From assembly GCA_000004985.1 (NCBI GenBank), contig GG738862.1: a stretch of DNA of 64,000 nucleotides. One strand, written 5' to 3'. Of this stretch, positions 1 through 42,600 are shown piece by piece. Under the pieces are notes generated by a model. That model searched no databases. It was not told the DNA's origin and worked only from the letters and a program-made list of their open reading frames with translations. Origin of the DNA: Naegleria gruberi. Lineage: Eukaryota. Numbering within the stretch: the stretch's first letter is position 1; every line of letters starts with the position of its first letter. The position numbers and the translations under genes are program-made.

Positions 1-59
1 CCACACAACAATGTTTTCTCGTTTTCTCTCTTGTCCTTAGAAAAGCAAAAAAAAACAAA

Positions 60-1919
60 ATGTATCAAAGGAAAGCATTGATAACTAACCAATCAATCCT
101 TAGTGTCAGTTTGCTGCTAGTTTGTTTACTGGCATTAAGTATTTTGCATGTTCCATCATCTGTTTTGTGTGCTTCCTCAAGTAGCTCATCAAGTAATGGA
201 ACTGTGAGAGAATGGCTCAATGACTTGAATGATCAAGCTGCTAATCTACAATCCTCTGCTTCAAGATTGCAAAAAGCTATTGCAATTTTGAGTATGGCCA
301 ACAATACAGCATCCATCATCAGCATGAGAAATGCCCAGCTAAAGAAGATTAATTCTGCACTTGACATGATTAATCAAGAAATTTCAATCTTTAAAATCAC
401 CTGCAGTAATAATGATGGTCCTGATTGTAGCATTCCAGTATGTGTATCAAAGTGTTTGAACTGCTCTGGACCTGGAAAGTGTGGTGTTTGTTCTGGTAAT
501 TTTGATGGAAGTGATTGCTCTGCATGTAAATCTGGATGGAGTAATTACAATAGCAATTGTACTGTTCCAATTTGTGATTCTAAATGTATTATTTGTCAAT
601 CACCTGGAAACTGTACCAATTGCTCTGGTAATTATGATGGTTCTGTATGTTCATCATGCAAATCAGGATGGAATGGTTCTAATTGTTCAACACCTATTTG
701 TGATTCTAAATGTGTAACTTGTCTCTCACCAGGAAACTGTACTAATTGCTCTGGTAATTGGACTGGATCTGCCTGTTCTATTCCTGTATGTGATTCCAAA
801 TGTTTGAATTGTTCAGCACCTAGTGTTTGTTCTCAATGTTCTGGTAATTGGGTTGGTTTAACTTGTTCAGTATGTCAGACAGGATGGACAGGAGCAACTT
901 GTTCAACACCAGTATGTGATTCCAAATGTACAACCTGTGCATCTCCTGGTGTTTGCTCAGTTTGTTCTGGTAATTGGCAAGGATCTACATGTTCCACATG
1001 TAAGACAGGATGGACAGGAGCAACTTGTTCAACACCAATTTGTGATTCCAAATGTACAACCTGTGCATCTCCTGGTCAGTGTTCTGTGTGTTCTGCTGGT
1101 TGGACAGGAGCAACTTGTTCAACACCAGTTTGTGATTCTAAATGTACAACATGTGCATCTCCTGGTCAGTGTTCTGTGTGTTCTTCTGGTTGGACAGGAG
1201 CAACTTGTTCAACACCAGTTTGTGATTCCAAATGTACAACATGTACATCTCCTGGTGTTTGCTCAGTTTGTTCTGGTAACTGGGATGGTCCTTCATGTTC
1301 TGTGTGTAAAACTAGTTGGACAGGTTCATCTTGCAATCTCGCTCTTGGTGATTTTGCAAACTCACCATTATTCTCCGCTAGTTATGGAGCTAGGTTGATC
1401 ACATCTATTTTGAGTGGCGTTATGAAGAAAACACCAACCAGACTCTATAGAGCCATGGCAACTTATGGTATGGGAATTGGTTATGGCTATCATCCTTACG
1501 CTTTCCATAATGCCTGCAATGGTTATTCTTCAACAGTTACAATTGTGAAAACATCAGCAGGGGCTGTATTTGGTGCCTATCTAAGCATTCCATGGGAAGA
1601 TTATAATGCTGGGGATACAACAACTCGTAAGACATTTTCAGATCCTAATGCATTTCTATTTAGTATGGTAACATCGAGCGGTGTGGAGAGATTTGTGAAA
1701 TTGGGTTATTCTGGAGCTGTTGGACAAACTGTTACATACAATTTTATAACACATCCATTGTTTGGAGCGTCGGATATTTATTTGGGACAAGGGATGAGCT
1801 ATCAGCCAGCACCTGATGCTTATTCGAAACCAGCAACTTTTCAACCTTTGGAACCTAACTGGAGTTATGGAACTACATATTCATTCACTGTTTCTGATTA
1901 TGAAGTGTATAGTATTTAA
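60..1919 (+). CDS. Secreted cysteine-rich repeat protein with a C-terminal TLDc domain (619 aa, single exon)
   Basis: ATG at 60 with a signal peptide, MYQRKALITNQSILSVSLLLVCLLALSILHVPSSVLCA. A short coiled-coil-like segment follows, then nine or more tandem ~30-38 aa modules, CDSKCTTCASPGQCSVCSxGWTGATCSTP, with CxxC and EGF/furin-like spacing. The C-terminal ~190 aa match the TLDc signature: YRAMATYGMGIGYGYHPYAFHNACNGYSSTVTIVKTSAGAVFGAYLSIPW and later DPNAFLFS. The ORF is uninterrupted for 1860 nt. Confidence 0.8.
   Translation: MYQRKALITNQSILSVSLLLVCLLALSILHVPSSVLCASSSSSSSNGTVREWLNDLNDQAANLQSSASRLQKAIAILSMANNTASIISMRNAQLKKINSALDMINQEISIFKITCSNNDGPDCSIPVCVSKCLNCSGPGKCGVCSGNFDGSDCSACKSGWSNYNSNCTVPICDSKCIICQSPGNCTNCSGNYDGSVCSSCKSGWNGSNCSTPICDSKCVTCLSPGNCTNCSGNWTGSACSIPVCDSKCLNCSAPSVCSQCSGNWVGLTCSVCQTGWTGATCSTPVCDSKCTTCASPGVCSVCSGNWQGSTCSTCKTGWTGATCSTPICDSKCTTCASPGQCSVCSAGWTGATCSTPVCDSKCTTCASPGQCSVCSSGWTGATCSTPVCDSKCTTCTSPGVCSVCSGNWDGPSCSVCKTSWTGSSCNLALGDFANSPLFSASYGARLITSILSGVMKKTPTRLYRAMATYGMGIGYGYHPYAFHNACNGYSSTVTIVKTSAGAVFGAYLSIPWEDYNAGDTTTRKTFSDPNAFLFSMVTSSGVERFVKLGYSGAVGQTVTYNFITHPLFGASDIYLGQGMSYQPAPDAYSKPATFQPLEPNWSYGTTYSFTVSDYEVYSI
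907..1290 (+). repeat. In-frame tandem DNA repeats (90-nt and 114-nt units, >90% identical) encoding the Cys-rich modules of the gene at 60-1919
   Basis: The string caacttgttcaacacc recurs at 1021, 1111 and 1201 with near-identical 90-nt units. A longer 114-nt variant unit starts near 907. Confidence 0.85.
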
Positions 1920-2830: not shown

Positions 2831-3969
2831 ATTATTTTACTAATTTATACATTTTCAAATTGGAAACTCAATCGAAACAATTTAATTGATCAATCTTGAA
2901 ACTTTAGTTGAAAGAATAAAAAGACTACAGCACCACAGGTTCCCAAGTTGTCTCCAACCTCAGTACTGATGTGGCTCGACGATGCTTAACTTCTCAAATC
3001 GGACGGGATGAGGTGCATTCATCGTGATATGGCCGTAGCCATTCTTTATAATAATCTTTCATCATTCAATTCCTTAATCTTTTACTCTTCAATTAATAAT
3101 TTTACTAAAATTGCAAAAGGAAAAAGAGTACGTGACAAATTGTTGCCAAAAGGTTTGTTGTTCTTTCTGGATAGGATTTGAAATTGAAAGAACAAGAAGA
3201 ACATCACTGCTAGATAACATCACGGAGATGTATTTATTGGTGTCTTGATGAAGATTGATGAAGTAGATGATGAATAATTATTGTTGGGAAGACATGTGAA
3301 AATTCAACTTTCCAATCTTTGGAAAATTGCTGAAAAACATTGCAAATCTACCTTTCCTGTTGTGATTTAATAACAAATCTTGTTCGTCCTGTTGAAATTG
3401 AACAAGTTTTCCAGTGCTGTTTTTGGCTGTGAAAATTAACGGTCAAACTTTCATCTTCTCCAACTCTACATCTGCTTGAAGGAAAATTTTGAAACTTTCT
3501 GGTATGATGCTAATTAACATTTAGAACAAGCCTAGGATGTTCTTGTTGCTTTTGATGATGTTCTTCATGATGAAAATATTAAAATTATTAATTTGATGAA
3601 AATATTCTTAAAGTAATACAATCGCACCCATTTGATTGTTATATCATTGCTGTATACTAATGGATGATGTGGGTTTTACTTCTCCAACTCGACAAAATGT
3701 TCCATCAATTTAATCGGTGCCTTTTAAAATTTGTAATTCATGTTGAAATACAACAAAATTAATTCCCACATGTTCCATATTATCCTATCCTCTTGTTCTG
3801 AAAATATTTTCCGCAGTGTCGAAGAATTGCCTTTGAAAATCAGCAATGATGAAAACTGTAGCAGAGTGATGAAATTTTTTCCTCTTTTTTTTTGCTTGCA
3901 CTTTCTTTCATCAAACTTCATTTAATGCAAAAACTCGGCAAAGATTTTCATTTACATATGTAACGGTTT

Positions 3970-8000: not shown

Positions 8001-11000
8001 GTAATTTTCAAATCTCTGCTAAATGGTAGATAGATTACCTTTCTATTAAGAATTCCACCAAGTTTAAATGAAAGATATGTATAATTGGTCTGGAGTAATT
8101 GTTTTAGTACAGTCAATCGAGGAATTTGTGCTTCGTTAAATGCAAGGACTAACATTGGAATAATTACCGATGTTTTGCCTTCTCCCATATTGAATTGGAG
8201 AACCATGTTTGTACTTGAGGAAAGCATGTGATTTGCAACTTCATATTGTCTTGGTCTAATCATCAAATCGAGTTCAATTTCCAATAATAACCATTGGGGG
8301 AACTTTTTAGGGCTCCAATTAACATGTCCACTATTTTCAAGTTCTCTATCAAATTGTACCTTCTTATTTGGATCATTGTTCATAAGTTTCAATCTGTTGT
8401 ATCGTTGTTCCAAAGTTGTTAATACAGCAAGAGCTCCAATCAAGTCTTTACAACCACAATACTGTTCAGTATCTGATATCAAATCCTGGAATAACAGATA
8501 TGGGCATAAACGATTTGAAATTCCACATTCTGCTATTGCTGATTTTGCAGTATCGGAAAAATTAGAAAGTTTACATTCCAGAGCTTTCCAAATTTTTTCT
8601 TTCAATTCCAATATGACAGAAATATTAGGCAGTTGTGCTGAGGTTACTTGGTTTGGGTTATTGGCTGTCAAATAACTGCCCTCCAGGTCTAGAATGTACT
8701 CGTTGTAAAGAGGGTCATGAGAGTCATGTGAAAATAATTGAACATCATGCTCCAAGGTTTTGATTACATCCTTCTCACAATATGGTGATATGTCACCTTT
8801 TTCAAAAATGTATTTAGCCATTTCTGGAACATCAGCTAATCCAAAAACAAGCTTATTTCCATCTTCTTGTACCTTGGTAAAATTCTGAATATCAAATGTT
8901 TGATTTGTTTCGTTTGGCTGTAAATTCTCCATTGTAATGTTGACTATTGTTATGTCACCTTTAGCATTATTCATCATATTTTGGAGAACTGATTTAATAC
9001 CTTGTAAAAATTTTTGAACTCGTTCTCTATTGTAAAGTGTAGATAAATAGTTATTGATATGATCGACAGCTTCACTCTTATCAATAAAATTTAATCTTCC
9101 AAATTTGTTTTTCTCCATTAATTGCTCCTTATTGAATGCTATTTCAGCAAACCTTAGGCATGTTCTAATATCATTATTAAACGTTTCATGGTCATCCTCA
9201 TCATCAAATGTTAGTCTACTATTTGCCGCTTTCAATAAATTTATAACGTCATCTTCATCAAAATCAGTACATTCCAAATCATCAACACTTGAAAAAATTA
9301 AAGGTGAATGTTGATTTCTAAAAGAATTGGCAAATAAATTAATAATCATGAAACAAGCCAACATTTTCTTTTTTTCTGGGAATACATAACCGAGATAAGA
9401 TATGAAAACTTTGAAATCGGCAGGTGTTTGAGTTTTGGCTGCTTCATAGAGTGTGAGGAAATCATCTTCGAGGTCAATATTTTTCCAATCATACAGGAAG
9501 TTCTCCACTTTTTTTTCTGGATTGAACGAGGACACTGAATTGATAAGTTCAACTGCTGAAATTTTCTGAAAATTATTTTTTGAAATAGATGCCAAGTACT
9601 TGCAAGCAACATAGGATGTCATTGAAGAGATCTTGATTGTTTCAACATAATTGACATCTTTTTGAGAACTAATTCTTAAACGTACAATAGGATTGTAATA
9701 ATTAAGGTAGGCTTTGTAATACCTTCTTGCCAAGAAGAGAGGATCTTCCTCGTCACTCTTTTTAACACTACTGCCACTTTCCCCGTCTAGGAAAATTGTC
9801 TCCTCTGACTTTTTAACAATAGAGTCCACAATTAGTTTGTAAGCATCCAAAAGACATAAACTTGATAAATTTGTTTTAGGCCATGTTATCTTCTCATTGA
9901 CTTTCATTTTTGGTGGATGGAAGCTTCTGTCAGGAGAAATAGATGAAATGGCCTCTAGTAGAGAGGTTTCCAATTTTGAGAGAGGTCTCATTGGCCAACA
10001 TCTTGCAGATTTCAAAATTTTGAGAGCTGATTCATAACCTGTTAATTTTGTGAATGGATCGACTATTACAGAGCTGGTGATACCATGAAGAAGTGCCAAA
10101 AAAAGCCAGGACGATAAGCTATCATTAGCTTCTAATTGCCACATGTACTCATTAACAGAATAGGTGAAATAAGGAGTATCTATTGATTTAGTCATATCGA
10201 TACGTGTTAAATGGTGATGTTTGAATTTTTCTGTTGAAATTTCACCATTTGGTACAAGCACAATCTTTTTAGAAGAGTTTGGATTTTCGTCCTTCAGCAT
10301 TATGGCATTAGAAAGTCCAATTAATGTACCACAATAAAATGAATCGCAAACTATCATTGAAAACTCCTTTGATCGTAAATAGCTGTTGTTCACCAATTCA
10401 AAGTGAAGTCCCAAACGTGGAAGTTCCACTAACACTTCATCATTATTTGCAAATATATGAATATTATGTTTGAGTTCAATTCTTGAAATTGATTTCAATA
10501 CTTCTGTATACGTTTCTCCAAAATAATTCATGAGTACTCTTTCAGTACCAACTTCTTTCAATTTCTTTTCTGTGACATCGAGTTTGTAAGCAATGCTACT
10601 TTTAAATTTTGGAGAAAAGAAAGAAATAGGTCTGAAAAGCACACAATTAGTTGTAACATCATACCAATGACTGTAGTTTTCCACAAATTGAGCTGGAAGA
10701 TCATATTCAAAAATTTTGTGAGACAATAAAATAGATGTTTCAGAGCCATGCTTCAGAATGAATTGCATACTTTTTCTAAACTCCAGTTGACAGCCGTCAA
10801 TATCGTACGATGTCACAAAAGCATCTGGACGTGTGGCTTGTTGCACATCAAACACAAAATTACCAAACACTCTCTTATACTTTGCATCTGCTGTGATAGG
10901 ATCAGGAAGTCTTCCAATTGGATTTCCATTGACAAGGAATGTTCCTCTAACAATATTGAAGGCAATTGCTGTAAATCCCGAATCGGTAAGAAGTGCTGCC

Positions 11001-14000
11001 TTAACCCATCCATTGGCTACCTTTTCCCATTTTGCATATGGATCAGTGTATCCAGACCAATAGAACTCAGCAAATATATTCAGTGCAATAGATGGTAATC
11101 CAATATATTTTTCAATTAAACAAGCAGTTTGGTAATAGCGTCTCAATAGGAAAACTTTGAGAGTGTTTTTAGGAAATGTGAATTGTTTGCTCAACACAGT
11201 GTTGTCATGAATTCTAGAAACACATTTACACCAAATTTCTACGTTTGTGTGAATAGCTAATTGAGGTTTTAGTACTGAAGGTTCCAAATTGAATGTAAGA
11301 ACTGCACAACAATTAATGTCAATCAGATTTTGTCTAATTTTGGCTATTTCTAGAGGTGGAGAATCAGTCATTGTAACAATAAGCGTTTCAATGTCTTTGG
11401 ACCACTTCAATATCAAGTTTCTGATTTTGGTCAAAAATTCAATGTACTTGTCAATAATTGATTGAGTAATATGAATATTGATAACCCTCAGAGCAGCAAC
11501 TATTAAAACTAGTACAACTTGGTATGATTTCCAGTTTTCCTTATACTTTTCCAATATAGATTCGAGCAATTCCAAAAGTTTTGAGCAAAACATTGAATTT
11601 TGTAATGGCTCATTAACTTCTCTGTACCACACATCAGAATCGTTTGGGCAATTTTGAAGCATGGATTGAAGCAGTAGAACAGTAACATCTGGCCTCTGAA
11701 TGGAAAGTTTTTCATTGGCCAAACATCTCACTATATTGTGCCACTGTAGTCTAAATCCTGCCCGTAGTGAACCATATTCTACAAACTCGGCCAAACTTAG
11801 ATTTGGATGACAGAGTGCTTGGTTGGCTATTACTTGATTTTGAGAGTGATCGAAACCACTAATAGCCCATTCCAGATTGGCATATTCAGGTGATTCAATT
11901 TTAAAGGTAAAATTACTTTCCTTCATTGATGAATGAGTCATTGTGTATGTGTGGTCGTTACCAACTGTTGCCACTAGGTCACATCCATTTGGTTTTAAAA
12001 AGCTATCCTCTGAACTCTGTACATGCTGCCGTGAGTAGTGAGTGTCAGAAAATCCTTTCACAGTACTACCAATAGTTGAGCAAGGTGGACGTCCAGATGT
12101 GAAATTCTCAAGGTAGCCTTGTTCTCTCCAAGTGCTTGGAATTTTATCTGTTTTCTGAACTCGGCATTGAAGCTGAGCCATACAGAAGAATGCATCTCTA
12201 TAATTCATATAATAATTCGGAATTAATAATTCAAAAACAATTGCATATTGTTCCACATATCCTGAAGGTAAAAAATCTTCAAAAATTGAAACATAAGTAT
12301 TGTCCAAACTTCTTTTCAATGAGCATTTGGAGCAATATTTGGAATGCCTTGTATAGCCATGAACATTAATGAAATATTCACATTCCATATTATTGTATCT
12401 GTTATAGTTTCTTTGATAATCATTCTTTCCTCTCCTTACTTCTTCAAGCTTTTGTTTTTTTCTTTCTTCATTCTCTTTTAGAATTTGATCCAATGTTTGT
12501 CTCATTGTCTTGTCGTGTCTCACAAAAAGGACACAATAGGAGTTAGCACTGAGTTTGTTTGTCAAAAAATCACATGGGCGTTTGGTTGTCTTATCGAAAC
12601 GTGTGAAATATTGTTCCAATTCGAGAGCAAATTTCATATCACTCGGAGAATCGAGTAATAAATATTTAAATGTAGATACATCCACTCCTGTTGAATATTC
12701 TTCTAACAGTTTGGAGCATGAAATGGCTATAATGTGCATAGCTTTCAAGAAGCCAAATAATGTCAGTATGAATCTGCTCTTTCCTATTGGATCGTTTTCA
12801 TAGAATTTCGAACCTAAATTGTAATAGGCATCCATTTTCTTATATACTGTATCAGAGAATGATTTTCCCTTCTTACTTTCATCAATGATTGTGAATAGCT
12901 CGTCTCTAACCCATGATTCATACTCCATTAATTGTCTTGTTGTGTAAATGTTATCATGTTCTTCCTTAGGAAGTGATGAATTCAAAAGACTGATTTCCCT
13001 TTGTTCAAAAAGGGTTTTGTTGTCCTTAATCTTTTGCAGAGAGTTACTTAAATTTTGAGAGCAAGAATCGGTATTCTTTGGAAAATTAGTGTTAAATGTA
13101 TCATTCTTTTTGATTTCCTGAATTGTTACATCCATTCTTTTTTGGATGAATTCCTTTGTGTCTCTAGTTGTAAATAATGCTGATGACTTGGATACGTGAA
13201 GCATATCCTTTAACTTTTGATTATTCACCTCTTTGCTTAAGGTACTTTTAAGGTTTTCTAACTTGGTCGCTCTCAATGAAATTTTGATTATCATTTGCAT
13301 TAGATAATCATTACTCATATTAATATACGTTCTCGCTTTTTTGCATAAATAGCTCATAAAATCCAGCATGAAAAGTTTGTAAAGAAACTTCCCCTGAATA
13401 GGTCCATATATTTTGTTGAATTTGTAATGCAGTGATGCTTTCAGGGAAATCCAGAAAGGAGATCTTCTTGTGCCATCCTGTTTAGGCCTCACAAAACTTC
13501 TCACTTTCTTTTTAATATTATTAGCTACAATATTAGTAGGACCACCAGAGAGTAGTGAAAGCATCCATTCTGTTATTAAAATTGGAGAAGAAACTTCTCT
13601 ATCTTCCGAAACAACTGTTCCTTTCCTCTTTGTTTTTGCTGAACTCATTTCCTGACTTTCAGTCAAATAAGTTAATTGATTTAAAAATGATTGACTTTCT
13701 AATACTGGAATATTATCATCCAGTACTGAAACTGATAACTCGGGATAAGTCATGCAACAAATGTCACATTTATAAATATTTGCATTCTTTGGATGACAAG
13801 TAAATGCTGACGCAATATACTTTGGTGTACTATCACTCGAATATTCGAACATTAACAAACAATTATTTCCAGTTAAATAGAACGAAATGCAATCATTACT
13901 TTCAGTCAGGTAAGATGTAATTGTTTTTCCCTTAGGAATGTCAATATCATTCAAATTAGATTGCACTGCAGCAATATTTGCAAAATATTTATCCAACCAC

Positions 14001-14299
14001 TTTAAGGAAATACCAGATAGTAAATTATCCGAATGTTCCTTTCTAAATTCCATCAAATGGTGCAAAACTTCCATATTTTCATCCAATCCACTTTGTTTTA
14101 TCGTGTAAAACACATCGGAATACATTCTAAACATTGACTCTGATGCCGTCTTACTCCTCTGTGATGACGATAACGTACCAGAAGCCTTTGTTGGCTGATT
14201 ATTGTTTGCATTATTTGCCGTTGTGTTAGTATTTGCTGTTGTTGAAGTTTGTTGCGAAGAAGAATTCGCTGATGGAACAAAAACCATTTTTTTTTTCAA
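5072..14299 (-). CDS. Giant 3075-aa single-exon protein with a P-loop-like GEGKTS motif (possibly the DUF3638/DUF3645-type large eukaryotic protein family)
   Basis: Uninterrupted 9.2-kb ORF. It has an N/T/S-rich N-terminus and a Walker-A-like MGEGKTSVIIPMLVLAFN near aa 1870, followed by hydrophobic strand-like segments. The family assignment is from memory of the GEGKTS context only. Confidence 0.8.
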   Translation of the reverse strand: MKKKMVFVPSANSSSQQTSTTANTNTTANNANNNQPTKASGTLSSSQRSKTASESMFRMYSDVFYTIKQSGLDENMEVLHHLMEFRKEHSDNLLSGISLKWLDKYFANIAAVQSNLNDIDIPKGKTITSYLTESNDCISFYLTGNNCLLMFEYSSDSTPKYIASAFTCHPKNANIYKCDICCMTYPELSVSVLDDNIPVLESQSFLNQLTYLTESQEMSSAKTKRKGTVVSEDREVSSPILITEWMLSLLSGGPTNIVANNIKKKVRSFVRPKQDGTRRSPFWISLKASLHYKFNKIYGPIQGKFLYKLFMLDFMSYLCKKARTYINMSNDYLMQMIIKISLRATKLENLKSTLSKEVNNQKLKDMLHVSKSSALFTTRDTKEFIQKRMDVTIQEIKKNDTFNTNFPKNTDSCSQNLSNSLQKIKDNKTLFEQREISLLNSSLPKEEHDNIYTTRQLMEYESWVRDELFTIIDESKKGKSFSDTVYKKMDAYYNLGSKFYENDPIGKSRFILTLFGFLKAMHIIAISCSKLLEEYSTGVDVSTFKYLLLDSPSDMKFALELEQYFTRFDKTTKRPCDFLTNKLSANSYCVLFVRHDKTMRQTLDQILKENEERKKQKLEEVRRGKNDYQRNYNRYNNMECEYFINVHGYTRHSKYCSKCSLKRSLDNTYVSIFEDFLPSGYVEQYAIVFELLIPNYYMNYRDAFFCMAQLQCRVQKTDKIPSTWREQGYLENFTSGRPPCSTIGSTVKGFSDTHYSRQHVQSSEDSFLKPNGCDLVATVGNDHTYTMTHSSMKESNFTFKIESPEYANLEWAISGFDHSQNQVIANQALCHPNLSLAEFVEYGSLRAGFRLQWHNIVRCLANEKLSIQRPDVTVLLLQSMLQNCPNDSDVWYREVNEPLQNSMFCSKLLELLESILEKYKENWKSYQVVLVLIVAALRVINIHITQSIIDKYIEFLTKIRNLILKWSKDIETLIVTMTDSPPLEIAKIRQNLIDINCCAVLTFNLEPSVLKPQLAIHTNVEIWCKCVSRIHDNTVLSKQFTFPKNTLKVFLLRRYYQTACLIEKYIGLPSIALNIFAEFYWSGYTDPYAKWEKVANGWVKAALLTDSGFTAIAFNIVRGTFLVNGNPIGRLPDPITADAKYKRVFGNFVFDVQQATRPDAFVTSYDIDGCQLEFRKSMQFILKHGSETSILLSHKIFEYDLPAQFVENYSHWYDVTTNCVLFRPISFFSPKFKSSIAYKLDVTEKKLKEVGTERVLMNYFGETYTEVLKSISRIELKHNIHIFANNDEVLVELPRLGLHFELVNNSYLRSKEFSMIVCDSFYCGTLIGLSNAIMLKDENPNSSKKIVLVPNGEISTEKFKHHHLTRIDMTKSIDTPYFTYSVNEYMWQLEANDSLSSWLFLALLHGITSSVIVDPFTKLTGYESALKILKSARCWPMRPLSKLETSLLEAISSISPDRSFHPPKMKVNEKITWPKTNLSSLCLLDAYKLIVDSIVKKSEETIFLDGESGSSVKKSDEEDPLFLARRYYKAYLNYYNPIVRLRISSQKDVNYVETIKISSMTSYVACKYLASISKNNFQKISAVELINSVSSFNPEKKVENFLYDWKNIDLEDDFLTLYEAAKTQTPADFKVFISYLGYVFPEKKKMLACFMIINLFANSFRNQHSPLIFSSVDDLECTDFDEDDVINLLKAANSRLTFDDEDDHETFNNDIRTCLRFAEIAFNKEQLMEKNKFGRLNFIDKSEAVDHINNYLSTLYNRERVQKFLQGIKSVLQNMMNNAKGDITIVNITMENLQPNETNQTFDIQNFTKVQEDGNKLVFGLADVPEMAKYIFEKGDISPYCEKDVIKTLEHDVQLFSHDSHDPLYNEYILDLEGSYLTANNPNQVTSAQLPNISVILELKEKIWKALECKLSNFSDTAKSAIAECGISNRLCPYLLFQDLISDTEQYCGCKDLIGALAVLTTLEQRYNRLKLMNNDPNKKVQFDRELENSGHVNWSPKKFPQWLLLEIELDLMIRPRQYEVANHMLSSSTNMVLQFNMGEGKTSVIIPMLVLAFNEAQIPRLTVLKQLLQTNYTYLSFKLGGILNRKVIYLPFSRDLKITATDLKTIRSVLEVMEKERSILITVPEYRLSFELKGIEKAIAKESIAHDYLRLQDYFEKHCRDILDESDEILHVRYQLIYTVGEQKDLDMGNLRWILPQKIMRIVRKHAESLFNKLGASHVEFFTRGDSHTFPYFRVLDKTSYNQLVDLIVDDILEGRASEIFIPYKLNDRENIKKILTAETISQTELDILSTMSNDILKSEILLMRGIFAFGLLYHSLNKRWRVNYGVNPNIKRLVAVPYRAKDCPSDRAEFGHPDIAILLTLLSYYYSGLTNEQLDVVFQFLQRIESPDVEYEKWVYEMKNIPESIKHYKSINLEDFIQKTQVLYPALRNNMAVIDFFLNRAVFSRECKQFDRKISASAWNLCKESKFPTCGFSGTKAFLLPITIKENELPSLRGTTGELLKILLSKENEEYHVVKQAEITNFISELNANNQRVLIDVGALMLEMSNMNLCKYWLNSVTEQVADAAVFFNTQDQLVVLDRNGLIIPFEISPYKNKLERCLIYLDDIHTRGTDLKFPTGMKAAVTLGNGLTFERLCQACMRMRLLGKGHSVAFWASQEVDRFINDNFSQQLTIQERILKWSIHNRVQMENDHYLQWSTSGLLFYSKKIAKTEYDAKLKMDEYAEQCTENELFKISDFYGQERYEQYLLSIFEKRALHISKLFSIDISPSLELIRANINKRAHSKTIFSQILNEEQERELENELEEQRIVERPQKCDPAATVIDDTLELFMKKGILQEEYDVSIQPLKARPLSESLEETLLASPINWNHNIYATDNYLKTVSNASKNSPFFKPVTWLAYSEYSQTIIILSPEEANHYIQKLDKFSPTRILMFCSRTSPTSRIMIDEPAWSVPNNNFEIADKVLLNLLTDIHIFAGSLYFANQLEQDEFCKFLGIAPKPYAPNSKEEELFQQSIIDEFGLISRESLEGLPLLYKCRIFNRDAVKYLRTIINIRDKSCLFELSHLYNVLINNQKIVFK

Positions 14300-21058: not shown

Positions 21059-23234
21059 TTAAATGTTATTAGTTTTTTTCAAATTTTGAACGGATAACCA
21101 TTTAGAATAGGTTGAGGTTTGTTGTAAACGATTGAAAGTATCCTGGAGGTTCAACAGCAAATCAGTTTCAACACATCTCCAAACTAAATCAAATTCAATC
21201 TGAGATTCAGCTTCACACTTTTCTAAAAGTGAATAAAACTTCCTCCTGCAAGTGAAAGGAAGGTTCACTTCATATTTTGAATAGTTTCTAATAAATTCAG
21301 CTTCAATTTCTTGTAATTCTTTGAACTTGACAAACTTTCTACCCTGTAGCGATTTCAACTTGATGTAAAATTCATAATTCTCTGAACTAAACTCCTTTTC
21401 ACAGTATTCCTTTAAAAGTACAAGTAAATCTGCATTTTTCAATTCTTGATCCCAATCCAGTTTTGACATTTCCTTTCGTTTTGTTATCATTTTGTAAATT
21501 TCAATCAATAAAACATTTCCTCCACTAATTTGGACGAAACTCAAACAAAGTAAAGTGTTGAAAATTCCTGTAAATATTGATAAATTTTGAATAGTTTCCA
21601 CATTTGACGAGCTCACTACTGAATTTTCAATTCCAGTTAGAATTCCAATGAAAAGTGGTATAAAAGTCGAAATTAAATCAACTCTAAAATAGAAAGGATC
21701 GTCGAAAAAGAAGAACTTTCGAATACCTCCTCCCTTTAGCATGTTTTTTCTTTGCAAGAACAAATCTAATAGCAAACAAAGTCCACAAAAAATCCACAAA
21801 ATAAGAATAGCAGCTAATAAAATAATAGGTCTATAAACATCGGCTGCTATCTTGCTTTCATTCACAAAATAGTAAACGCTTGTCAAGTTCAGTAAATGTG
21901 AAATTGGGAAGGTAAGAACTACGGTCACTAGCAATCCTGCCTTTTGAGAAGCGAGCATTTTCAATAACTTTTCTCTCTTTGGAAACATTACAATGAGAGA
22001 GTATAAATTTCGCAAATAATAGAACCGAACAATGGTGGTTCCATAAATGGTAACCCACCAAAAAAAGCAAAATAAAGAAACGCTATACCAAAATCCAACA
22101 CAAGTTCTGGATAGTCCAGTGAATGTAAGCATGATACCCAATATTAGAAGTGATGTGTATGGAATTCCAATTCTTCTTTTGATTGATGGTTTTTTGTAAA
22201 CTTTCAAACCGAATAACAATAAAAAATAAATTACTATAATTAGGAATTGAGGAATGATAAAGTAATCCAAAATTGGTACGAAATCCTCGCCATAACACCC
22301 ATCAGTTTGGCACATATAGCACGTAGAAGGAAGTAAATTTTGCCAAGTTTCATTCAAGGAAAGATCACCAGACATGTTCAAATTAATCTTATCATTAACG
22401 AGAGTCCAATTTCCATTAATTTGTGTCTTTCCAGTAATGTTACTAATGATATCAATATCTAGTTGAGAAAAATTAGCATAACCAGTCATCCTTCTAAAAA
22501 ATTGAGCATCCGAAATGTCAGGTCTGTTATCACAATTTGTAACTTCAAAATCAAACATGTTAGCAACTAACTGTATTGGTAGTAGATTGTGTGTAGACTT
22601 CATACGGGATGAGAGGTATCGCAACAAAGTCGGCAGTGTTCATGTAGATGCCAGATGCCATGTCAACATCGCGATAAAATCTCAGATAAAACGAAAAGTA
22701 ATAGGGATCCAACAAGATGGCATCATATTTTGCAAAGTAATTTCTTCTCTGACACATGTCCACCTGTGGATAAATAGGAAAGTAGCTGGAAGAATCTAAA
22801 CTATTTGATGACCCGACAGAAAGTGACAGATTTACACAGGTGAAAAATCTTGCCAAGTAATCATAAAAATCTGGAATAGGGCCGATGGTTAAACCCTTCT
22901 CCTTGACCGATTCTATCAAATACTTTCGTCTAGAATCGTTATTATTTGTGGTGATTAGTTTAGTCAAAGTTTCATTAGAAAATTTACTTTTCCACACGAA
23001 TAGTATTAGAAATGTTCTTACTCCAACCACAGAATCTCCGGTTTTAACTTGTGTAAGAAGTGGAGAAGTTGTAGTAACCAAGTCTAAAGCATTCTTTCTT
23101 TCACAAGTTGTGTGTGAAATGAGAAAAAACCAAGTGAATGTCAATAGAAGGAGAAAAGCTGATTTTTTCATGGTTGTCAAACGCAAATTTCGAAATTTCA
23201 TGCACTCTAGTTCTACTTGTTTCCAAAATAACAT
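21059..23234 (-). CDS. 7TM receptor with an RGS-domain fusion and a large N-terminal ectodomain carrying a signal peptide. Probably one gene, with the junction at about 22560-22640 unresolved.
   Basis: ORF 21059-22627 has seven hydrophobic helices and a C-terminal RGS box: KEYCEKEFSSENYEFYIKLK...EIEAEFIRNYSKYEVNLPFTCRRKFYSLL...FDLVWRCVETDLLLNLQDTFNRLQQTSTYSKW. ORF 22560-23234 begins with the signal peptide MKKSAFLLLLTFTWFFLISHTTC and ends 60 nt inside the next ORF in another frame. A 1-nt frameshift or an unrecognised splice is needed to join them. Confidence 0.6.
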
Positions 23235-24044: not shown

Positions 24045-25190
24045 TTATTGAAGAGAAAAAACTTCATAATCTTCAATTTGGAAATATTGTGATCCTGTCA
24101 AGTATGATTGTGCGGTTGAACCTGGTGTCAATATTCCATCACCATAGCTGTGACCTAGATTAGCATAATTGTAATTATCTGCAATATGTAAATCATGTCC
24201 TGCTCCAAATGCTGGTCCATATTGAGGATTGTGATAAATTGAGTATTGAGAAGAGTTGTCTCCAATCTTGAAGTAATATCCATATTGTTGAGTCAATTTT
24301 GTAAATCTTTCAACTTTGTCAGCTGAAACTAAACTAAATAGAAATGCTGATTTGTCTGGAAAGAATGCTCCAGTAGTTGAGGTCCATGAAATACTTGTAT
24401 AACCTCCAAATACAGCACCTGTTTTTGCCTTGACAATTACAACGGTTGAACCTTTGTTATCACATTTCGAATGGAATGCTTGAGCTGAGAAACCATCTCT
24501 TGATGCCTTAAATATTAATTTGAGTCCATTTGGTGTTGGAATGCCATTCAATATTTCTGTTGCTAATCTTTCTGATTGTTTTTGAGATAATAGTGTTGAA
24601 TCTTTCAATCCACTTATTTTGGATTCGAGTTCTTTCTTTACTTGTTCTTCCTTATTCTTCTTTTCTTGTTCTTCTTTCAATTTCTTTTGATATTTGAGTT
24701 TCTTCTCTTGTTCTTCTTTCATCTTTGTTTCCAGTTCCTGCGAGGATTCAGATTTGAGCTGTTTGTTATCTTTGAGTTTATTCTTTTGGTTTTCTTTAGA
24801 TTTAGATTCATGTCTTTCATGTAATGGTCTTGTTTGATATAATAGTTCAAGATTTTCAATTTCAATTTCCAAAATAGATTTCAATTCATTCAATTCATTT
24901 CTTGTTGTTGATTTATCAGATGTGTAAGATTTAAACAAAGATGATTTCTTTCCACTCACTTCAAATGCATCCAATAAAATGTTAATTTCCTTCAATGCAT
25001 TTGATGTGTCTTTCAAATATTGCTTTTTATCTTTCAATACTTTGAACACATCTCTTGTTGAATATGTTGATGATGAAGAATTGTTGCTTGTTCCTTTACT
25101 AAGTAATGTTACTGTTGATGATTGTGCATGTGTAGCCATTACTAATGCACTCATCAATATTATTAAGGCAAATAAACAACAACGCAACAC
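24045..25190 (-). CDS. Secreted coiled-coil TLDc-domain protein (381 aa)
   Basis: Signal peptide MLRCCLFALIILMSALVMATHA. K/E-rich coiled coil (KEEQEKKLKYQKKLKEEQEKKNKEEQVKKELESK). TLDc core LIFKASRDGFSAQAFHSKCDNKGSTVVIVKAKTGAVFGGYTSISW ... DKSAFLFSL ... GAGHDLHI. Confidence 0.8.
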   Translation of the reverse strand: MLRCCLFALIILMSALVMATHAQSSTVTLLSKGTSNNSSSSTYSTRDVFKVLKDKKQYLKDTSNALKEINILLDAFEVSGKKSSLFKSYTSDKSTTRNELNELKSILEIEIENLELLYQTRPLHERHESKSKENQKNKLKDNKQLKSESSQELETKMKEEQEKKLKYQKKLKEEQEKKNKEEQVKKELESKISGLKDSTLLSQKQSERLATEILNGIPTPNGLKLIFKASRDGFSAQAFHSKCDNKGSTVVIVKAKTGAVFGGYTSISWTSTTGAFFPDKSAFLFSLVSADKVERFTKLTQQYGYYFKIGDNSSQYSIYHNPQYGPAFGAGHDLHIADNYNYANLGHSYGDGILTPGSTAQSYLTGSQYFQIEDYEVFSLQ

Positions 25191-27890: not shown

Positions 27891-28261
27891 TTATTTTTAG
27901 GTTGTGTTTGATGAACTTTTGTTCATGATCACCGATCAAGTGTAAGCATGTCCATCTAATGAGCCAAGCAAGGAGTGAATAAGTTTTTTAAAACATGCTC
28001 ATTGTTAAAGAAGCAATGAATACATTGAGATGATTACCACCATTCAATGAACACTCATTTAACACTAAATAATGAATGTTCAATAACAAACAATCTAAAA
28101 CTGGGATATTCATATCTAAAATTGTTCCCATTATTATTGTACTGGACTCTATATCCCTCCTTAATTAATTTGAACATCTGTAAATCACTGTAAATATCTA
28201 TGTATTACAATAACTGTTTTAGTCATCCACACAATAATCCCTTGGAAAAGCAAACAAAAAA

Positions 28262-29410
28262 AATGTATCAATATAAAGCATTGCTTAGTGTCACTTTGCT
28301 GATAGTTTGTTTACTGGCATTAAGTATTTTGCATGTTCCATCATCTGTTTTGTGTGCTTCCTCAAGTAGCTCATCAAGTAATGGAACTGTGAGAGAATGG
28401 CTGAGTGACTTGAATGATCAAGCTGCTAACTTACAATCCTCTGCTTCTAGATTGCAAAAAGCTATTGCAATTTTGAGTATGGCCAACAATACAGCATCCA
28501 TCATCAGCATGAGGAGTGCTCAACTCAAGAAGATTAATTATGCTCTTGACATGATTAATCAAGAAATTTCAATCTTTAAAACCACATGCAGTAATAATGA
28601 TGGTCCTGATTGTACCATTCCTATATGTGTATCAAAGTGTTTGAATTGTACTGCACCTGGCATATGCTCACAATGTTATGGCAATTGGAATGGTACTGAC
28701 TGTTCCTATTGTAAGATGGGATGGAAAGGCATTGATTGTAACACTTCTCAATGTGATTCAAAGTGTTTGATATGCACTGGACCCTCTCAATGTTCAGTTT
28801 GTTCTGGTAACTGGGATGGTGCTAACTGTACTACTTGTAAGGCAGGATGGGCAGGAACTAATTGTGCTACCCAAGTTCCTGTGGGAGATTTATCATCTTC
28901 TTCCATATTGACACCAGTTAATGCCACAAGATTTGTTTCTGAAATAGTTAATAGTGTAAGATCCAAACCAATTACACTATTGTATAGATCTTCAAGAGAT
29001 AGTTATAATCCTTCAATCTTCCATAGTTTATGTGATAATAAGGGGCCAACTATTACAATTGTTAAGGCTAATACGGGAGCCATATTTGGAGGTTATACTT
29101 CAATTAGTTGGAATTCAGGTGGTGTCAATTTTATAGTGACCCAAATGCTTTCTTATTTAGTATTATTTCTTCAACAGGAGAGCAAAGATTTACAAAGATA
29201 CTCCAACAACCACCATACGCCTATAGTATTTATACATCTTACCACCATTTCCCTGTATTTGGTGCCGGGAATGATCTTTATATTGGCACAAGTTATTGCA
29301 GCACTACCCCTTCCTCATACATATATCAATCCAGAGCTTATTTCGCTTGTCTCCCAAATGTTAATTGTGATACTTGGGTTCTTTCAGATTTCGAGGTTTA
29401 CTCGTTGTAA
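28262..29410 (+). pseudogene. Truncated paralogue of the 60-1919 Cys-repeat/TLDc gene with a 1-nt frameshift inside the TLDc region (pseudogene or assembly indel)
   Basis: The first ~420 nt, 5' flank included, are ~95% identical to 60-480. Only about three Cys-rich modules remain. The reading frame breaks at about 29129-29132 in a T-run (...ISWNSGGVNF then SDPNAFLFSIISSTGEQRFTK continues in the +2 frame). The ORF-track pieces are 28200-29420 and 29108-29410. Confidence 0.6.
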
Positions 29411-29963
29411 GCAAATTTAATCTGACGAAAACAACATGTGGATACTCAATACTGTTGAAACCTTTCAAATAGGGACTGTGGCAAGATAAATGATCTGGTG
29501 GTTCCAAAACACTGCTGTGATAGCAGCATTCCCAATATTTCTTATTGTGCCATCCAAAAGAGATAATTTACTAGTAAATGATTGCATATCCTTTCACTTC
29601 AGCCTCACAAACAACTCTACAGTATCCAAAGGAAGCCTTCTCGTTTTTCCTTTCTATTCTTGATATCCACCAGTGGCTGTATCCTTGTTCATTTCGGTTT
29701 TTCCTTCCATGAATTGTTTAATTAAGTCCACTGTTTGATTTTTCCTTCCATGTATTGTTTAATGAAGTCCACTGTTATTGATTCTTGTTGATGGTTATTC
29801 TGTTATTATTGTTGATGATGATGCAGTTTGTTGCCAAGAGTCAGAATTTTATGAATCATCAGACTAGGATGATACCTCCTTTCTCTTTCTTGCCATTTTT
29901 TTTAAACATTAAATTAAACTTTGTTACAAAGGCGGGAACAAGTTCATAGTCTTACAAAAAAAA

Positions 29964-39616: not shown

Positions 39617-42600
39617 TTAATTGCCTTGTTTGGTGAATTCCATGTAACCCAATCTTTTTCCTTGTGAATTGAATGGAAAGGAGTTCTTTTTTGAACTATC
39701 GTGTTCGTAAAGTGTAGAATCTGAAAAGTTAGCAGTAAATTTCTTTGTTCCGACTGTAAGTTCCATATATCTTGGATACCTGTCTCTATGGTACTTTCGT
39801 TTTCCTCTCAGCAACTTGGCGCTTGTTTTGGCGTCGAAAATTATAAACTCCTTTCCCGAATTATAAACTGTGACCTTATATTTTGAAGCTTTCTTTTGCT
39901 TAAATGGAGCGTAGGCATGTTCAAGGAAATTATTCTTTGTAGGATTGAAAGAGCCAATATGTTGTTGTCCTGGATCTATTTGAATGAATTCAATTTGTGG
40001 AGAGAGGTTACTATTCATCTTTTTTGGTCTCAGAATTTCCTGAATGTCATTAAGGGAGTACTCAAAGAATGTTGATAATTTGAGGTTATTGGTAATGTAT
40101 TTTACACGTTGATCTATTTTTCTAAATCCCTCACTTGCAGTGTCATATGCAAAAGTAATGTCCACTTGTGAATAGTCATGCTTCTTTGATGGTTCTGTTA
40201 GTGATAAATCTCTTTCTGTACTCTCTATTGTTCTTCTTCCTTTAATCGACACAAGAGCGTCAAATTCGTGAAGTTTTTTAAACGAGTTGATAATCATTAA
40301 AATTCTTGCAAGACCATTAAATTGAGTGATGGTTGGCTTTAGATCACCTAATAAAATAGGATTTACCACCTTCTTAATATCGTAGCCACAAATACCTATC
40401 CTAAACCCTCTCATTGCATACTTTATCAATCTAGTTTCAAAAGTTGTTGATTGTCTATCCACATCCACAATATTACATCTAGTTCTTATTGCTTCTCTAG
40501 CTCTTGGTACGCAAAATACTTGATTTCCATCAAAACCAATGCTGCAACAGGCAATATCAAATCCCATCAACACTTCAGCCTTTTGTTTATCAAAAGATTT
40601 GTAAATTCTCAAAATTACTTAAACTTACTGGTGATTTGTAAATTCTCAATACTATTTGTACAGATTTTTTGTGATATCCTGAACATTTGAAGGTGATAGC
40701 ATGTTGTGTTCTGATAATTAGTAATTCTCCATCCTTAGTATTTTTCTTGAAAGTGTTAAAAATACTAACAATCTTCTTTTCAGCATCTGTTTCTGAAAGA
40801 CCATACAAAAATAAATCAATATCACTCTTTCTCCAAGGCTTATTTTGGAAATACTGTCTAATGGTATATTCTTCTGATGAAGTATTTTGACTCGGGCTAA
40901 ATTTAGTATGCATATCATTTTCTTCATCTGTCACGTAATCATCATCTGATGAATCATTAGTATTTGGAGCTTCTCCATCACTTGCATCGTTATTACCCCA
41001 AAATTTGGAAAGACTTTTTTGTTGTTTCCATAGCTCAGTATTATATAACCTGCCACGTGAAAATTGTGTATCGCTACGAACTTTAACTTTCAAACAGGAA
41101 GCTAAAACTGATCCTCCAGCCACAAAAACATTAGACCAATCCATCTCCTTAAATATTCCATCTGTGAAAATGTCAAATTGTTTCAGAAATTGTTCTCTTG
41201 ACTCTACAAGTTCAGGAGGTGTAGGAATTGTTAAGGATGACTTTTTGGCTAGCTCAAAAGCTTCACAAGGATCCTCAAAGTTGAAAAGTAACTTGCTTGG
41301 TTCCAAAACTGGATCTTTGCACCTGAAAGATTTCCTAATACTGTTGCTAGATCCAAAAATATTAATCAAGTTGATATATGGATCATTGAGGATTACATTT
41401 TCTCTATCAGCAACAAATAAATTTCTCAAAAAGTCCTCATATCTTTTGTATTTCAAATTCTTTTCTCCGATTTCTTCTATTGGATATCTACAAATATCAA
41501 AATATTCTAGAATACCGTTCAATCTGAAATATTTAGCCTCACTATAGACTTGTTTCTTTGTTTCTGTTAGAGTTGGGAAATTATCAATCTTTCCATTCAA
41601 AAGATATTCATGAATAAATTTGAAAATTTCTGGATCTCTATCAATAAATATTTCGATTCAATTTGGTAGAATTCTTTACAATGGTATAGAGCAAACTGTC
41701 AGGTTCTCTCAAAAGCTTGGATTTGGTTAAACTAAACTTGACTCCTCTAACATTGAAAGTGATATCCGTCATGTTCTTGGACATTTCCATTTCTTTCAAG
41801 TCTTCGAATTCCCTGGTTAGTTTTTCTTTTTGGTCCTTGATATATTTCTCAACTTTTTCCTTTTCTTCAAGAGTGATCATGGCAAACTTGGAATAAAATT
41901 CCTCATCCAAAGCTTCGTCGACCAGAGAAGAAGAAACTACTTCGGGTACTTCATCTGGAATATAGATATTCTTTCGTTCTCTAACCTCATTCTTGTAAAT
42001 ATCTATAAGTGATTTTAACTTGATAGTGAGTTTATCAAGCGCAAAAAAGTCTGATTCCTCCAAAAGCTTTTTCAAACGTTTGATATTCCTCTTACTTGCA
42101 TCCTCCCAAATACCAATATGAGTGGTTGAACCAGTTCTCAAGTGTTCCAAAATTATTGGAAAATATTCAGGATCTCTATCAATTAAAATACACCCATTCT
42201 CATCCTTATCGACTCCAAACTGAGATTCCAACATGACACGAAGCATATTATCCCTCTTACACAAAGTAGACATTGTGCTTACAAAAATCTTCCCTCTCAA
42301 ATTAAGTTTCACAATATTTTCCTCTTGTTGGGACAATTCAAATTCTTGTAAAACTTGTTTTCCATGAACATCCATCTCTGCAACCTCTTCTCCATCATCT
42401 CCACCAGAAAAACGCTCCACAAGCAATTCAACTTCCTTCTTCTTCATCTCATTCCGCTTCACTTCATCCTTCAACTCGATCAAACTCTCAACTCTAAATC
42501 TTTCCAAAGCCCGACGTTCCTTCCAAATATTTCTCTTACTTTCCATCTCCTTATCATCAAGAACACGAACATTTTTTTGATCATCATCATCACCCGAAGG

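What the first reader, a model, noticed from the sequence alone, without database searches (positions are those of the whole stretch)
28262..29410. Paralogue of the 60-1919 gene with a gene-converted 5' end (~95% nt identity over ~420 bp including the 5' flank), only ~3 Cys modules and a 1-nt frameshift in TLDc
From just upstream of the ATG to the first Cys module, the two loci 28 kb apart are almost base-for-base identical: signal peptide, LQSSASRLQKAIAILSMANNTASIISM..., first Cys module. Downstream they diverge strongly. This mosaic pattern implies recent gene conversion of the 5' portion, or a conserved promoter and signal cassette. The copy is frame-broken in a T-run at about 29129, which makes it either a young pseudogene or an assembly indel.
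Basis: seen in the sequence. Interest (0 to 1): 0.5.

Follow-up and report, generated by a model that had tools for sequence, protein, structure and literature searches.

The report
Mosaic, frame-broken secreted TLDc gene (Naegleria)
Two Naegleria gruberi genes for secreted TLDc-domain proteins, 28 kb apart, share a recently exchanged 5' end, and one has a single-base frame break that the public annotation reads straight through; this is an ordinary case of recombination in a gene family plus one unresolved base.

Summary
The window is Naegleria gruberi NEG-M. Gene B (28263-29410, +) and gene A (60-1919, +) are 94% identical in nucleotides from at least 35 nt upstream of the ATG to the first Cys module (breakpoint near B 28644 / A 459; 0 of 2000 permutations reach the observed contrast). 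In that tract dS is 0.16. Downstream, dS is saturated and the TLDc domains share 39% of residues. Selection on a signal or promoter cassette cannot explain the low synonymous divergence, so the cause is ectopic recombination.

The frame break is real in this sequence. The run TTTT at 29129-29132 needs a fifth T. With it, B encodes an intact 382-aa protein that keeps all 18 near-invariant TLDc positions and the family's C-terminus. GenBank XP_002678372.1 is the read-through translation with a spurious tail of about 95 residues.

Young null allele and consensus error remain about equally likely; reads were not available. Programmed frameshifting is unsupported. B has 2 Cys modules, not about 3. 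This is a new member of a known kind, of low to moderate interest.

The parts
28228..28262 (+). 5' flank of gene B homologous to window 1-59 upstream of gene A (probable 5'UTR and core promoter)
   Evidence: 31 of 35 aligned nt are identical, with a 21-22-nt and a 2-nt indel. The 5' limit is unknown because the window starts inside the homology on the A side.
28263..28644 (+). Coding part of the shared recombination tract in B: signal peptide, Ser-rich linker, two-helix stalk, CX7C and the start of Cys module 1
   Evidence: 94.2% nt identity to A 60-459; dS 0.16, dN 0.037; maximum chi-square breakpoint at about 28644.
28263..28358 (+). Predicted signal peptide (aa 1-32, MYQYKALLSVTLLIVCLLALSILHVPSSVLCA)
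   Evidence: A 15-aa window reaches Kyte-Doolittle 2.94. Assigned from sequence features only; no signal-peptide predictor was available. Between 28283 and 28284 B lacks 18 nt (ITNQSI) that A has and that P0002 has in equivalent form.
28389..28598 (+). Helical stalk (two long helices, aa about 43-112)
   Evidence: AlphaFold2 model of P0001: H43-72 and H78-112, pLDDT about 90. P0002 shows the same.
28626..28877 (+). Two 42-aa EGF-like Cys modules (CVSKC... and CDSKC...)
   Evidence: Motif segmentation. Weak Pfam EGF_TEN similarity in the paralogues.
28878..29410 (+). TLDc domain region of B, split between two frames; true-frame stop TAA 29408-29410
   Evidence: Pfam PF07534: 71.7 bits (E 9e-20) after adding one T, 49 bits and only profile positions 3-101 as the sequence stands.
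29129..29132 (+). TTTT run where the reading frame breaks (one T short)
   Evidence: GTC AAT TTT(T) TAT AGT GAC restores GGVNFYSDPNAF.
29133..29420 (+). Out-of-frame read-through tail used by the public gene model (about 95 aa, hydrophobic, stop TAA 29418-29420)
   Evidence: P0001 = XP_002678372.1 is identical to this reading. Absence of stops is compatible with chance (codon shuffle P = 0.06). pLDDT is 30-58 in this tail.
1..459 (+). The matching tract in gene A (5' flank plus codons 1-134)
60..1919 (+). Gene A: 619 aa with signal peptide, stalk, 8 Cys modules and TLDc. It is a three-part mosaic, and codons about 283-619 (nt 906-1919) match NAEGRDRAFT_76184.

Best explanation
Gene B (28263-29410, +) belongs to a Naegleria gruberi family of secreted proteins. 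Each has a signal peptide, a two-helix stalk, EGF-like Cys modules and a C-terminal TLDc head.

Shown: B's 5' flank and first 128 codons share a much more recent origin with the same part of gene A, 28 kb away, than the rest of the two genes does.

Inferred mechanism: ectopic homologous recombination, either interlocus gene conversion or an unequal exchange that built a chimeric gene. Its 3' junction lies in the first Cys module, at the conserved CVSKCLNC motif.

Inferred direction: the segment is native to the B/P0002 lineage and was copied into A. A is itself a three-part mosaic.

Shown: in the reference sequence B is one T short in a T-run (29129-29132), which splits TLDc between two frames. 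Nothing else in the gene is damaged.

Inferred: the break is either a very young slippage deletion (a null allele, possibly heterozygous; about 0.5) or a consensus error in the draft assembly (about 0.45). In either case B was a working gene until extremely recently or still is one.

Shown: the public protein model reads straight through the break and therefore carries a spurious C-terminal tail.
For: Organism and annotation:
- P0001 (XP_002678372.1, NAEGRDRAFT_66521, N. gruberi) is identical to the read-through frame.

Mosaic:
- Nucleotide identity is 94% to the left of the breakpoint and 59% to the right; 0 of 2000 permutations reach this.
- dS is 0.16 in the tract and 2.5 or saturated outside it.
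- Cassette identity A-B is 95% aa, against 39% aa for TLDc.

Direction:
- The A/B cassette is 67-68% identical to P0002's.
- TLDc identity is 49% for B-P0002 but only 36% for A-P0002.
- A's residues about 283-619 are 96-98% identical to P0003.

Frameshift and intactness:
- One added T gives 382 aa with Pfam TLD at 71.7 bits, against 49 bits for the read-through.
- All 18 near-invariant TLDc columns are kept, including 8 downstream of the break.
- The post-break half is no more diverged from paralogues than in intact family members.
- The conserved C-terminus DFEVYSL and the position of the stop are kept.

Fold:
- The P0002 model has mean pLDDT 82, and its TLDc matches solved TLDc structures (6r82, 7obp, 4acj; target-normalised TM-score 0.70-0.77).
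- In the P0001 model pLDDT collapses after residue about 290.
Against: - No reads, transcripts, peptides or second assembly of this locus could be reached, so whether the missing T is real is untested.
- DNA of the P0003 and P0002 loci was not available. The A-P0003 relation and the direction of transfer therefore rest on protein identities only.
- The A-P0003 similarity could itself be a conversion or an alternative haplotype, which weakens the polarity argument.
- The tract's 5' boundary lies beyond the window.
- With dS 0.16 the exchange is more recent than the rest of the gene but not very recent.
- The pLDDT collapse in the read-through tail is expected simply because that tail has no homologues in the alignment.
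Confidence: 0.75

Rival explanations
1. B is the recipient. A's cassette was copied over B's original 5' end.
For: The data show only that A and B share the tract. B carries a derived 18-nt deletion in it. The A-P0003 similarity used to call A 'the mosaic' might itself be a later conversion.
Against: The cassette is 67-68% identical to P0002's. That fits B's relationship to P0002 (TLDc 49%, the same 2-module architecture, 382 vs 385 aa). It does not fit A's (TLDc 36%). The N-terminal helix of P0003, A's closest relative, is only about 30% identical to any cassette.
Confidence: 0.22
2. No recombination took place. The 5' end is simply kept similar by strong selection on promoter, signal peptide and stalk.
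For: dN/dS of 0.23 in the tract shows constraint on the protein. The cassette is a conserved module across at least 13 N. gruberi proteins.
Against: Synonymous sites are 85% identical inside the tract and saturated just outside it. Other cassette-bearing paralogues are only 42-68% identical in protein. The change in divergence is abrupt.
Confidence: 0.02
3. The missing T is an error of the draft consensus, or only one haplotype carries it. In the organism B is an intact, functional 382-aa gene.
For: There is a single lesion in a homopolymer. No other decay is seen: all near-invariant residues, the C-terminal motif and the stop are kept, and the post-break half is not more diverged. The repaired protein scores 71.7 bits on Pfam TLD, within the family range of 38-98 bits.
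Against: I recall that this genome was sequenced with Sanger reads; if so, a T4/T5 run is short and rarely miscalled at normal coverage (my own knowledge, not checked here). Homopolymers are also true mutational hot spots. No intact version of the protein exists in about 5.8 billion public protein clusters.
Confidence: 0.45
4. The break is genuine and is decoded by a programmed -1 ribosomal frameshift on AAU UUU A. This would give both a full TLDc protein and a read-through form with a hydrophobic tail.
For: A -1 slip of tRNA-Phe on UUUU would give exactly the homologous sequence VNFYSDPN. The zero frame stays open for 97 codons, and its tail has a membrane-helix-like stretch (Kyte-Doolittle 2.12). 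A 9-bp hairpin lies downstream.
Against: There is no canonical X XXY YYZ heptamer. The hairpin is weak (-10.4 kcal/mol, z -1.4) and starts 14 nt after the run, not 5-9. The open zero frame is compatible with chance (P = 0.06). Every paralogue encodes TLDc in one frame.
Confidence: 0.03
5. Gene A is an assembly chimera that joins reads from B's 5' end to a NAEGRDRAFT_76184-like gene, so the 'tract' is an artefact.
For: Gene A has no model in public protein sets. It sits at the very start of the window. Its two ends resemble two other genes.
Against: A differs from B at 5.8% of tract positions and by 18-nt and 21-22-nt indels, and it differs from P0003 at several residues and a 7-aa indel. Its middle (aa 135-282) is unique. 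A chimera of misplaced reads would be about 100% identical to its sources.
Confidence: 0.04

Closest known systems
TLDc-domain proteins (OXR1, NCOA7, TBC1D24/Skywalker, mEAK7; Pfam PF07534)
   Same: The C-terminal domain matches PF07534 above the gathering score. The model of the close paralogue P0002 superposes on solved TLDc domains (6r82, 7obp, 4acj, 7u4t; probability 1.00, target-normalised TM-score 0.70-0.77).
   Different: The known members are cytosolic, and several of the matching solved structures are complexes with V-ATPase. This protein has a signal peptide, an extracellular-type stalk and EGF-like modules. Sequence identity to solved TLDc domains is only 16-21%. In the reference sequence the domain is split by a frameshift.
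Coral EGF-TLDc proteins (Acropora, Montipora and Stylophora 'fibropellin-like' or 'crumbs-like' predicted proteins)
   Same: They combine EGF-type Cys modules with a C-terminal TLDc, and are 33-40% identical over the TLDc part.
   Different: They have calcium-binding EGF domains (PF07645, PF12947) rather than the C[DV]SKC modules, and they lack the Naegleria N-terminal helical cassette.
Stalk-plus-globular-head secreted proteins of animals (ficolins, angiopoietins, tenascins)
   Same: In N. gruberi the same cassette (signal, helices, CX7C, EGF-like spacer) is joined to Fibrinogen_C, Laminin_G_3 or TLDc heads. That is the same layout: an N-terminal helical region, a spacer and a C-terminal head.
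   Different: No homology of the stalk to the animal proteins was shown. Oligomerisation and ligand binding are untested, and a TLDc head is not known in those animal families.
Interlocus (ectopic) gene conversion and chimeric duplication in multigene families
   Same: A sharp tract boundary, low dS inside and saturated dS outside, and conflicting relationships between gene segments.
   Different: Donor and recipient, and conversion versus unequal crossover, cannot be separated here. The tract's 5' end is outside the window.

Membership tests
TLDc domain family (PF07534) | Profile match above Pfam's gathering score (24.5 bits) | tested here: met
   71.7 bits (E 9e-20) with one T restored; 49 bits for the sequence as it stands.
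TLDc domain family (PF07534) | Complete domain encoded in one reading frame | tested here: not met
   As written, only profile positions 3-101 of 170 are in the N-terminal frame. The rest is in frame -1 from 29129 onward.
TLDc domain family (PF07534) | TLDc fold | tested here: met
The model has pLDDT 82 and matches 6r82, 7obp and 4acj with target-normalised TM-score 0.70-0.77. B keeps all 18 near-invariant columns.
Gene-conversion / ectopic recombination tract | Abrupt change of divergence along the alignment, beyond chance | tested here: met
   Maximum chi-square 118; 0 of 2000 permutations reach it; identity 94.3% vs 58.6%.
Gene-conversion / ectopic recombination tract | Low synonymous divergence in the tract, high outside it (excludes selection on the protein) | tested here: met
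   dS 0.16 vs 2.5 or saturated.
Gene-conversion / ectopic recombination tract | Different segments give conflicting relationships | tested here: met
   Cassette: A-B 95%. TLDc: A-B 39%, A-P0003 96%, B-P0002 49%.
Gene-conversion / ectopic recombination tract | Donor and recipient identified from orthologues or an outgroup | tested here: inconclusive
   Protein identities favour transfer from B's lineage to A. DNA of the other loci and of sister strains was not available.
Pseudogene | Disabling lesion in the coding sequence | tested here: met
   1-nt frame break at 29129-29132.
Pseudogene | Lesion present in the organism's DNA (not a consensus error) and on all alleles | not testable with these tools
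   No reads were available. Two metagenome scans gave 0 hits, and no independent protein copy was found.
Pseudogene | Relaxed constraint or further decay | tested here: not met
   No further stops or shifts. The conserved residues are kept, and the post-break half is no more diverged than in intact paralogues.
Programmed -1 ribosomal frameshift site | Slippery heptamer X XXY YYZ in the zero frame | tested here: not met
   The zero-frame codons are GUC AAU UUU AUA, so only single-tRNA slippage on UUUU is possible (read directly from the sequence).
Programmed -1 ribosomal frameshift site | Stable stimulatory structure 5-9 nt downstream | tested here: not met
   The best hairpin is -10.4 kcal/mol, z -1.4, and starts 14 nt downstream.
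Programmed -1 ribosomal frameshift site | Frameshift conserved in homologues | tested here: not met
   A, C, P0002, P0003, P0004 and P0088 all encode TLDc in a single frame.

The most novel reading that the evidence does not exclude
The missing T is genuine and the gene is still expressed through low-efficiency -1 slippage on the UUUU run. One mRNA would then yield a secreted stalk-EGF-TLDc protein and a zero-frame product whose 95-aa hydrophobic tail anchors a truncated head in the membrane. The zero frame, open for 97 codons, would be maintained rather than accidental.
Probability: 0.03. Interest if true: 0.65.

Novelty: new member of a known kind. Interest (0 to 1): 0.25.

Why it matters
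Practically, the public model XP_002678372.1 / D2VCC4 (NAEGRDRAFT_66521) has a wrong C-terminal quarter, and gene A appears to be missing from the public protein set. Both are annotation fixes.

Biologically, the pair shows that a lineage-specific N. gruberi family of secreted proteins is being reshuffled by ectopic recombination. The family combines a common stalk cassette with TLDc, fibrinogen-like or laminin-G heads. That is the expected way for such repertoires to diversify, but it has not been described in the papers searched here. A secreted TLDc domain is also unusual, given that the solved TLDc structures matched here include cytosolic V-ATPase complexes. None of this changes a major question.

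Tried and rejected
Locus retrieval and outside evidence:
- The look-up of encoding contigs for gene A, P0001 and P0003 returned nothing; N. gruberi DNA is not in that index.
- Two JGI metagenome scans gave 0 hits. One used 33 specified bases around the T-run and allowed T4 or T5. The other used 24 bases of the 100-nt stretch identical between A and B.
- Literature searches for Naegleria with TLDc, and for the locus tags and accessions, gave 0 papers. The supplements of one N. gruberi proteomics paper did not mention these genes.
P0002 and P0001 were modelled instead.

Rescue by an intron was rejected:
- The only GT...AG pairs around 29120-29165 are 13-18 nt long or would delete the conserved SDPNAFLFS motif.
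- Homology runs right up to both sides of the T-run (read directly from the sequence).

Meaning in the stop-free read-through frame was rejected:
- Shuffling the codon order gives no stop in 5.9% of trials, with a mean of 2.1 stops.

Programmed frameshifting was rejected as the leading reading.

Segmental duplication was rejected:
- Self-BLAST shows no similarity in the flanks beyond the tract.

Other same-strand split ORFs in the window were checked as a gauge of assembly indels:
- The two junctions clearly interpretable (about 22560-22630 and about 40590-40612) look like ordinary GT...AG introns. This gives no evidence for or against a high indel error rate.

Full report
**What the window is.** The composition is about 34% G+C, with long, mostly uninterrupted ORFs. 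A protein search with gene B returned 'predicted protein [Naegleria gruberi]' P0001 (385 aa, on a scaffold of 502,116 bp). P0001 is residue-for-residue the translation of 28263-29420 in one frame. Its accessions are XP_002678372.1 / EFC45628.1 / D2VCC4, locus tag NAEGRDRAFT_66521. The window is therefore the N. gruberi NEG-M reference, and the frame break discussed below is present in the deposited sequence.

**Checking the observation.**
- Gene A is a 619-aa ORF at 60-1919. Gene B starts at ATG 28263.
- A pairwise alignment shows near-identity from the 5' flank to the first Cys module:
  - A 35-459 vs B 28240-28644: 381 of 405 identical (94.1%).
  - Coding part: 360 of 382 identical (94.2%).
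  - Indels: 18 nt in frame in the signal peptide, 2 nt in the A-rich leader, and 21-22 nt further upstream. Beyond that last indel, A 1-12 again matches B 28228-28239.
- The homology therefore reaches the first base of the window, and its 5' end cannot be seen.
- A maximum chi-square scan on the codon alignment puts the breakpoint at A about 459 / B about 28644. Identity is 94.3% to the left and 58.6% to the right, and 0 of 2000 permutations reach the observed statistic.
- Nei-Gojobori estimates are dS 0.16 and dN 0.037 in the tract, dS 2.5 in the Cys modules, and saturated dS in TLDc.
- In a self-comparison this is the strongest dispersed repeat in the window, and the neighbouring genes are not duplicated.
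- B has two 42-aa C[VD]SKC modules, not about three. A has eight.

**The frame break.**
- The N-terminal frame reads ...ISWNSGGVNFIVTQML... and stays open to TAA at 29418-29420.
- Family homology (FYSDPNAFLFS...PVFGAGNDLYIG...DFEVYSL*) continues in the -1 frame from 29129 to TAA at 29408-29410.
- The switch is confined to TTTT at 29129-29132. A fifth T gives GTC AAT TTT TAT AGT GAC = VNFYSD and a 382-aa protein.
- Pfam TLD scores 71.7 bits (profile 3-141) for the repaired protein, against 49 bits (profile 3-101) for the read-through protein. Intact paralogues match profile positions 4-169.
- An intron cannot rescue the frame. The possible GT...AG pairs are 13-18 nt long or would remove the conserved SDPNAFLFS motif (read from the sequence).

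**Is B decaying?**
- In a 60-sequence TLDc alignment, B keeps the consensus residue at all 18 near-invariant columns. Eight of these lie downstream of the break.
- Identity of B to paralogues, pre-break half / post-break half, is 57/49, 57/46, 47/38 and 50/34%.
- Intact pairs show the same ratio (65/53, 63/44, 49/34, 54/40), so there is no excess divergence after the break.
- The family C-terminus and the stop position are conserved.
- The lesion is therefore either not real or extremely young.
- The read-through frame has no stop for 97 codons. That is why the public model uses it. Shuffling the codon order leaves that frame stop-free in 5.9% of trials (mean 2.1 stops), so this is compatible with chance.
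- The AlphaFold2 model of P0001 drops from pLDDT about 80-90 to 30-58 after residue about 290. In P0002 the equivalent region is at 83-97 apart from one 58 dip. This is only weak evidence, because the tail has no homologues in the alignment.

**What the proteins are.**
- The P0002 model (pLDDT 82) shows an N-terminal hydrophobic helix, two long helices (49-78 and 84-118), small beta-hairpin Cys modules and a well-packed C-terminal domain.
- That C-terminal domain matches solved TLDc structures: Skywalker/TBC1D24 6r82, NCOA7 7obp, OXR2 4acj and mEAK7 7u4t (probability 1.00; target-normalised TM-score 0.70-0.77 for the isolated domains).
- B's frame break would remove roughly the last six strands of this domain.
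- A profile of the N-terminal cassette finds 14 proteins among 1.84 billion representatives. All of those looked up are N. gruberi proteins or about 90%-identical copies from metagenomes.
- Their C-terminal heads are TLDc, Fibrinogen_C or Laminin_G_3, usually behind EGF-like spacers.
- The cassette is thus a shared secretion-and-stalk module placed in front of interchangeable globular heads. This layout resembles ficolins, angiopoietins and tenascins. Oligomerisation and binding are inferred from that resemblance and were not tested.
- A third secreted TLDc gene lies between A and B at 24045-25190 (-).

**Which gene is the mosaic.** Segment-wise protein identities disagree with each other:

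| Pair | Cassette | TLDc |
|---|---|---|
| A-B | 95% | 39% |
| A-P0002 | 67% | 36% |
| B-P0002 | 68% | 49% |
| A-P0003 | not comparable | 96% |

- BLASTP shows A residues about 283-619 nearly identical to P0003 (XP_002668896.1, NAEGRDRAFT_76184, on a 59,947-bp scaffold). Upstream of that the two differ strongly, and P0003's N-terminal helix is only about 30% identical to any cassette.
- A is therefore a three-part mosaic: a B-like 5' end, a unique middle and a P0003-like 3' end.
- B is coherent with P0002 in architecture (2 modules; 382 vs 385 aa) and in every segment.
- The cassette's 67-68% identity to P0002 fits B's lineage and not A's, so A is more likely the recipient (my estimate about 0.75 vs 0.22).
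- The caveat is that this rests on proteins only. The A-P0003 similarity could itself be a conversion or a haplotype variant.
- The 18 nt missing from B's signal peptide correspond to residues that P0002 has in equivalent form, so this is a later deletion in B.
- Gene A has no exact or near-full-length counterpart in public protein sets.
- An assembly chimera is unlikely, because A differs from both putative sources by several percent and by indels.

**Alternatives for the break.**
- Programmed -1 frameshifting would give exactly the homologous peptide through a tRNA-Phe slip on UUUU.
- Against it, there is no X XXY YYZ heptamer. The only downstream hairpin is weak (-10.4 kcal/mol, z -1.4) and starts 14 nt away. 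All paralogues are in a single frame.
- I give programmed frameshifting about 0.03.
- Between a real slippage deletion (a null allele, possibly heterozygous) and a consensus error I cannot decide, and I put them at about 0.5 and 0.45.
- No independent copy of the locus exists in the protein collections or in the JGI metagenomes. No paper or supplement examined mentions the gene.

**Verdict.**
Recombination is supported. A selection-maintained cassette is rejected. Pseudogene versus indel is still open.
- This is a new example of a well-known process, ectopic recombination in a lineage-specific secreted gene family, together with a one-base annotation problem. Interest is low to moderate (0.25).

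Noticed in passing
window 60-1919 (+): Gene A is a three-part mosaic. Codons 1-134 resemble B. Codons about 283-619 are 96-98% identical in protein to NAEGRDRAFT_76184 on a 59,947-bp scaffold. The middle is unique. Gene A has no exact or near-full-length model in public protein collections.
   Followed up: partly
window 1011-1256 (+): Inside gene A, 90-nt units that encode 30-aa Cys modules are 96% identical to each other. This points to recent tandem duplication or homogenisation.
   Followed up: no
window 24045-25190 (-): A third TLDc gene lies between A and B. It has a signal-like N-terminus, a Lys/Glu-rich coiled coil and a TLDc domain (Pfam 97.8 bits), but no Cys modules. Its start codon is unclear: the ORF opens with GTG, so there may be an upstream exon.
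   Followed up: partly
window 2922-3040 (-): A complete 5S rRNA gene (Rfam RF00001, 105 bits) lies about 1 kb downstream of gene A, among protein-coding genes.
   Followed up: no
window 62935-63322: A (GGTTTG) x 65 microsatellite with 96% matches. It coincides with the strong positive GC skew of the last 2 kb.
   Followed up: no
window 53369-55090 (+): An ORF with NHL repeats and teneurin- or tenascin-type EGF domains. It is the other Cys-module match to gene A in the window.
   Followed up: no
window 5072-14299 (-): A 3075-aa uninterrupted ORF. It was not examined.
   Followed up: no
N. gruberi proteins P0002, P0004, P0008, P0088-P0096; locus L001: The N-terminal cassette (signal peptide, two helices, CX7C) is shared by at least 13 N. 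gruberi proteins with TLDc, Fibrinogen_C or Laminin_G_3 heads. For three of them (P0089, P0090, P0008), copies at least 90% identical come from ENA assemblies; the one traced (P0089) lies in metagenome ERZ929261 (ERR1078381, PRJEB11402).
   Followed up: partly
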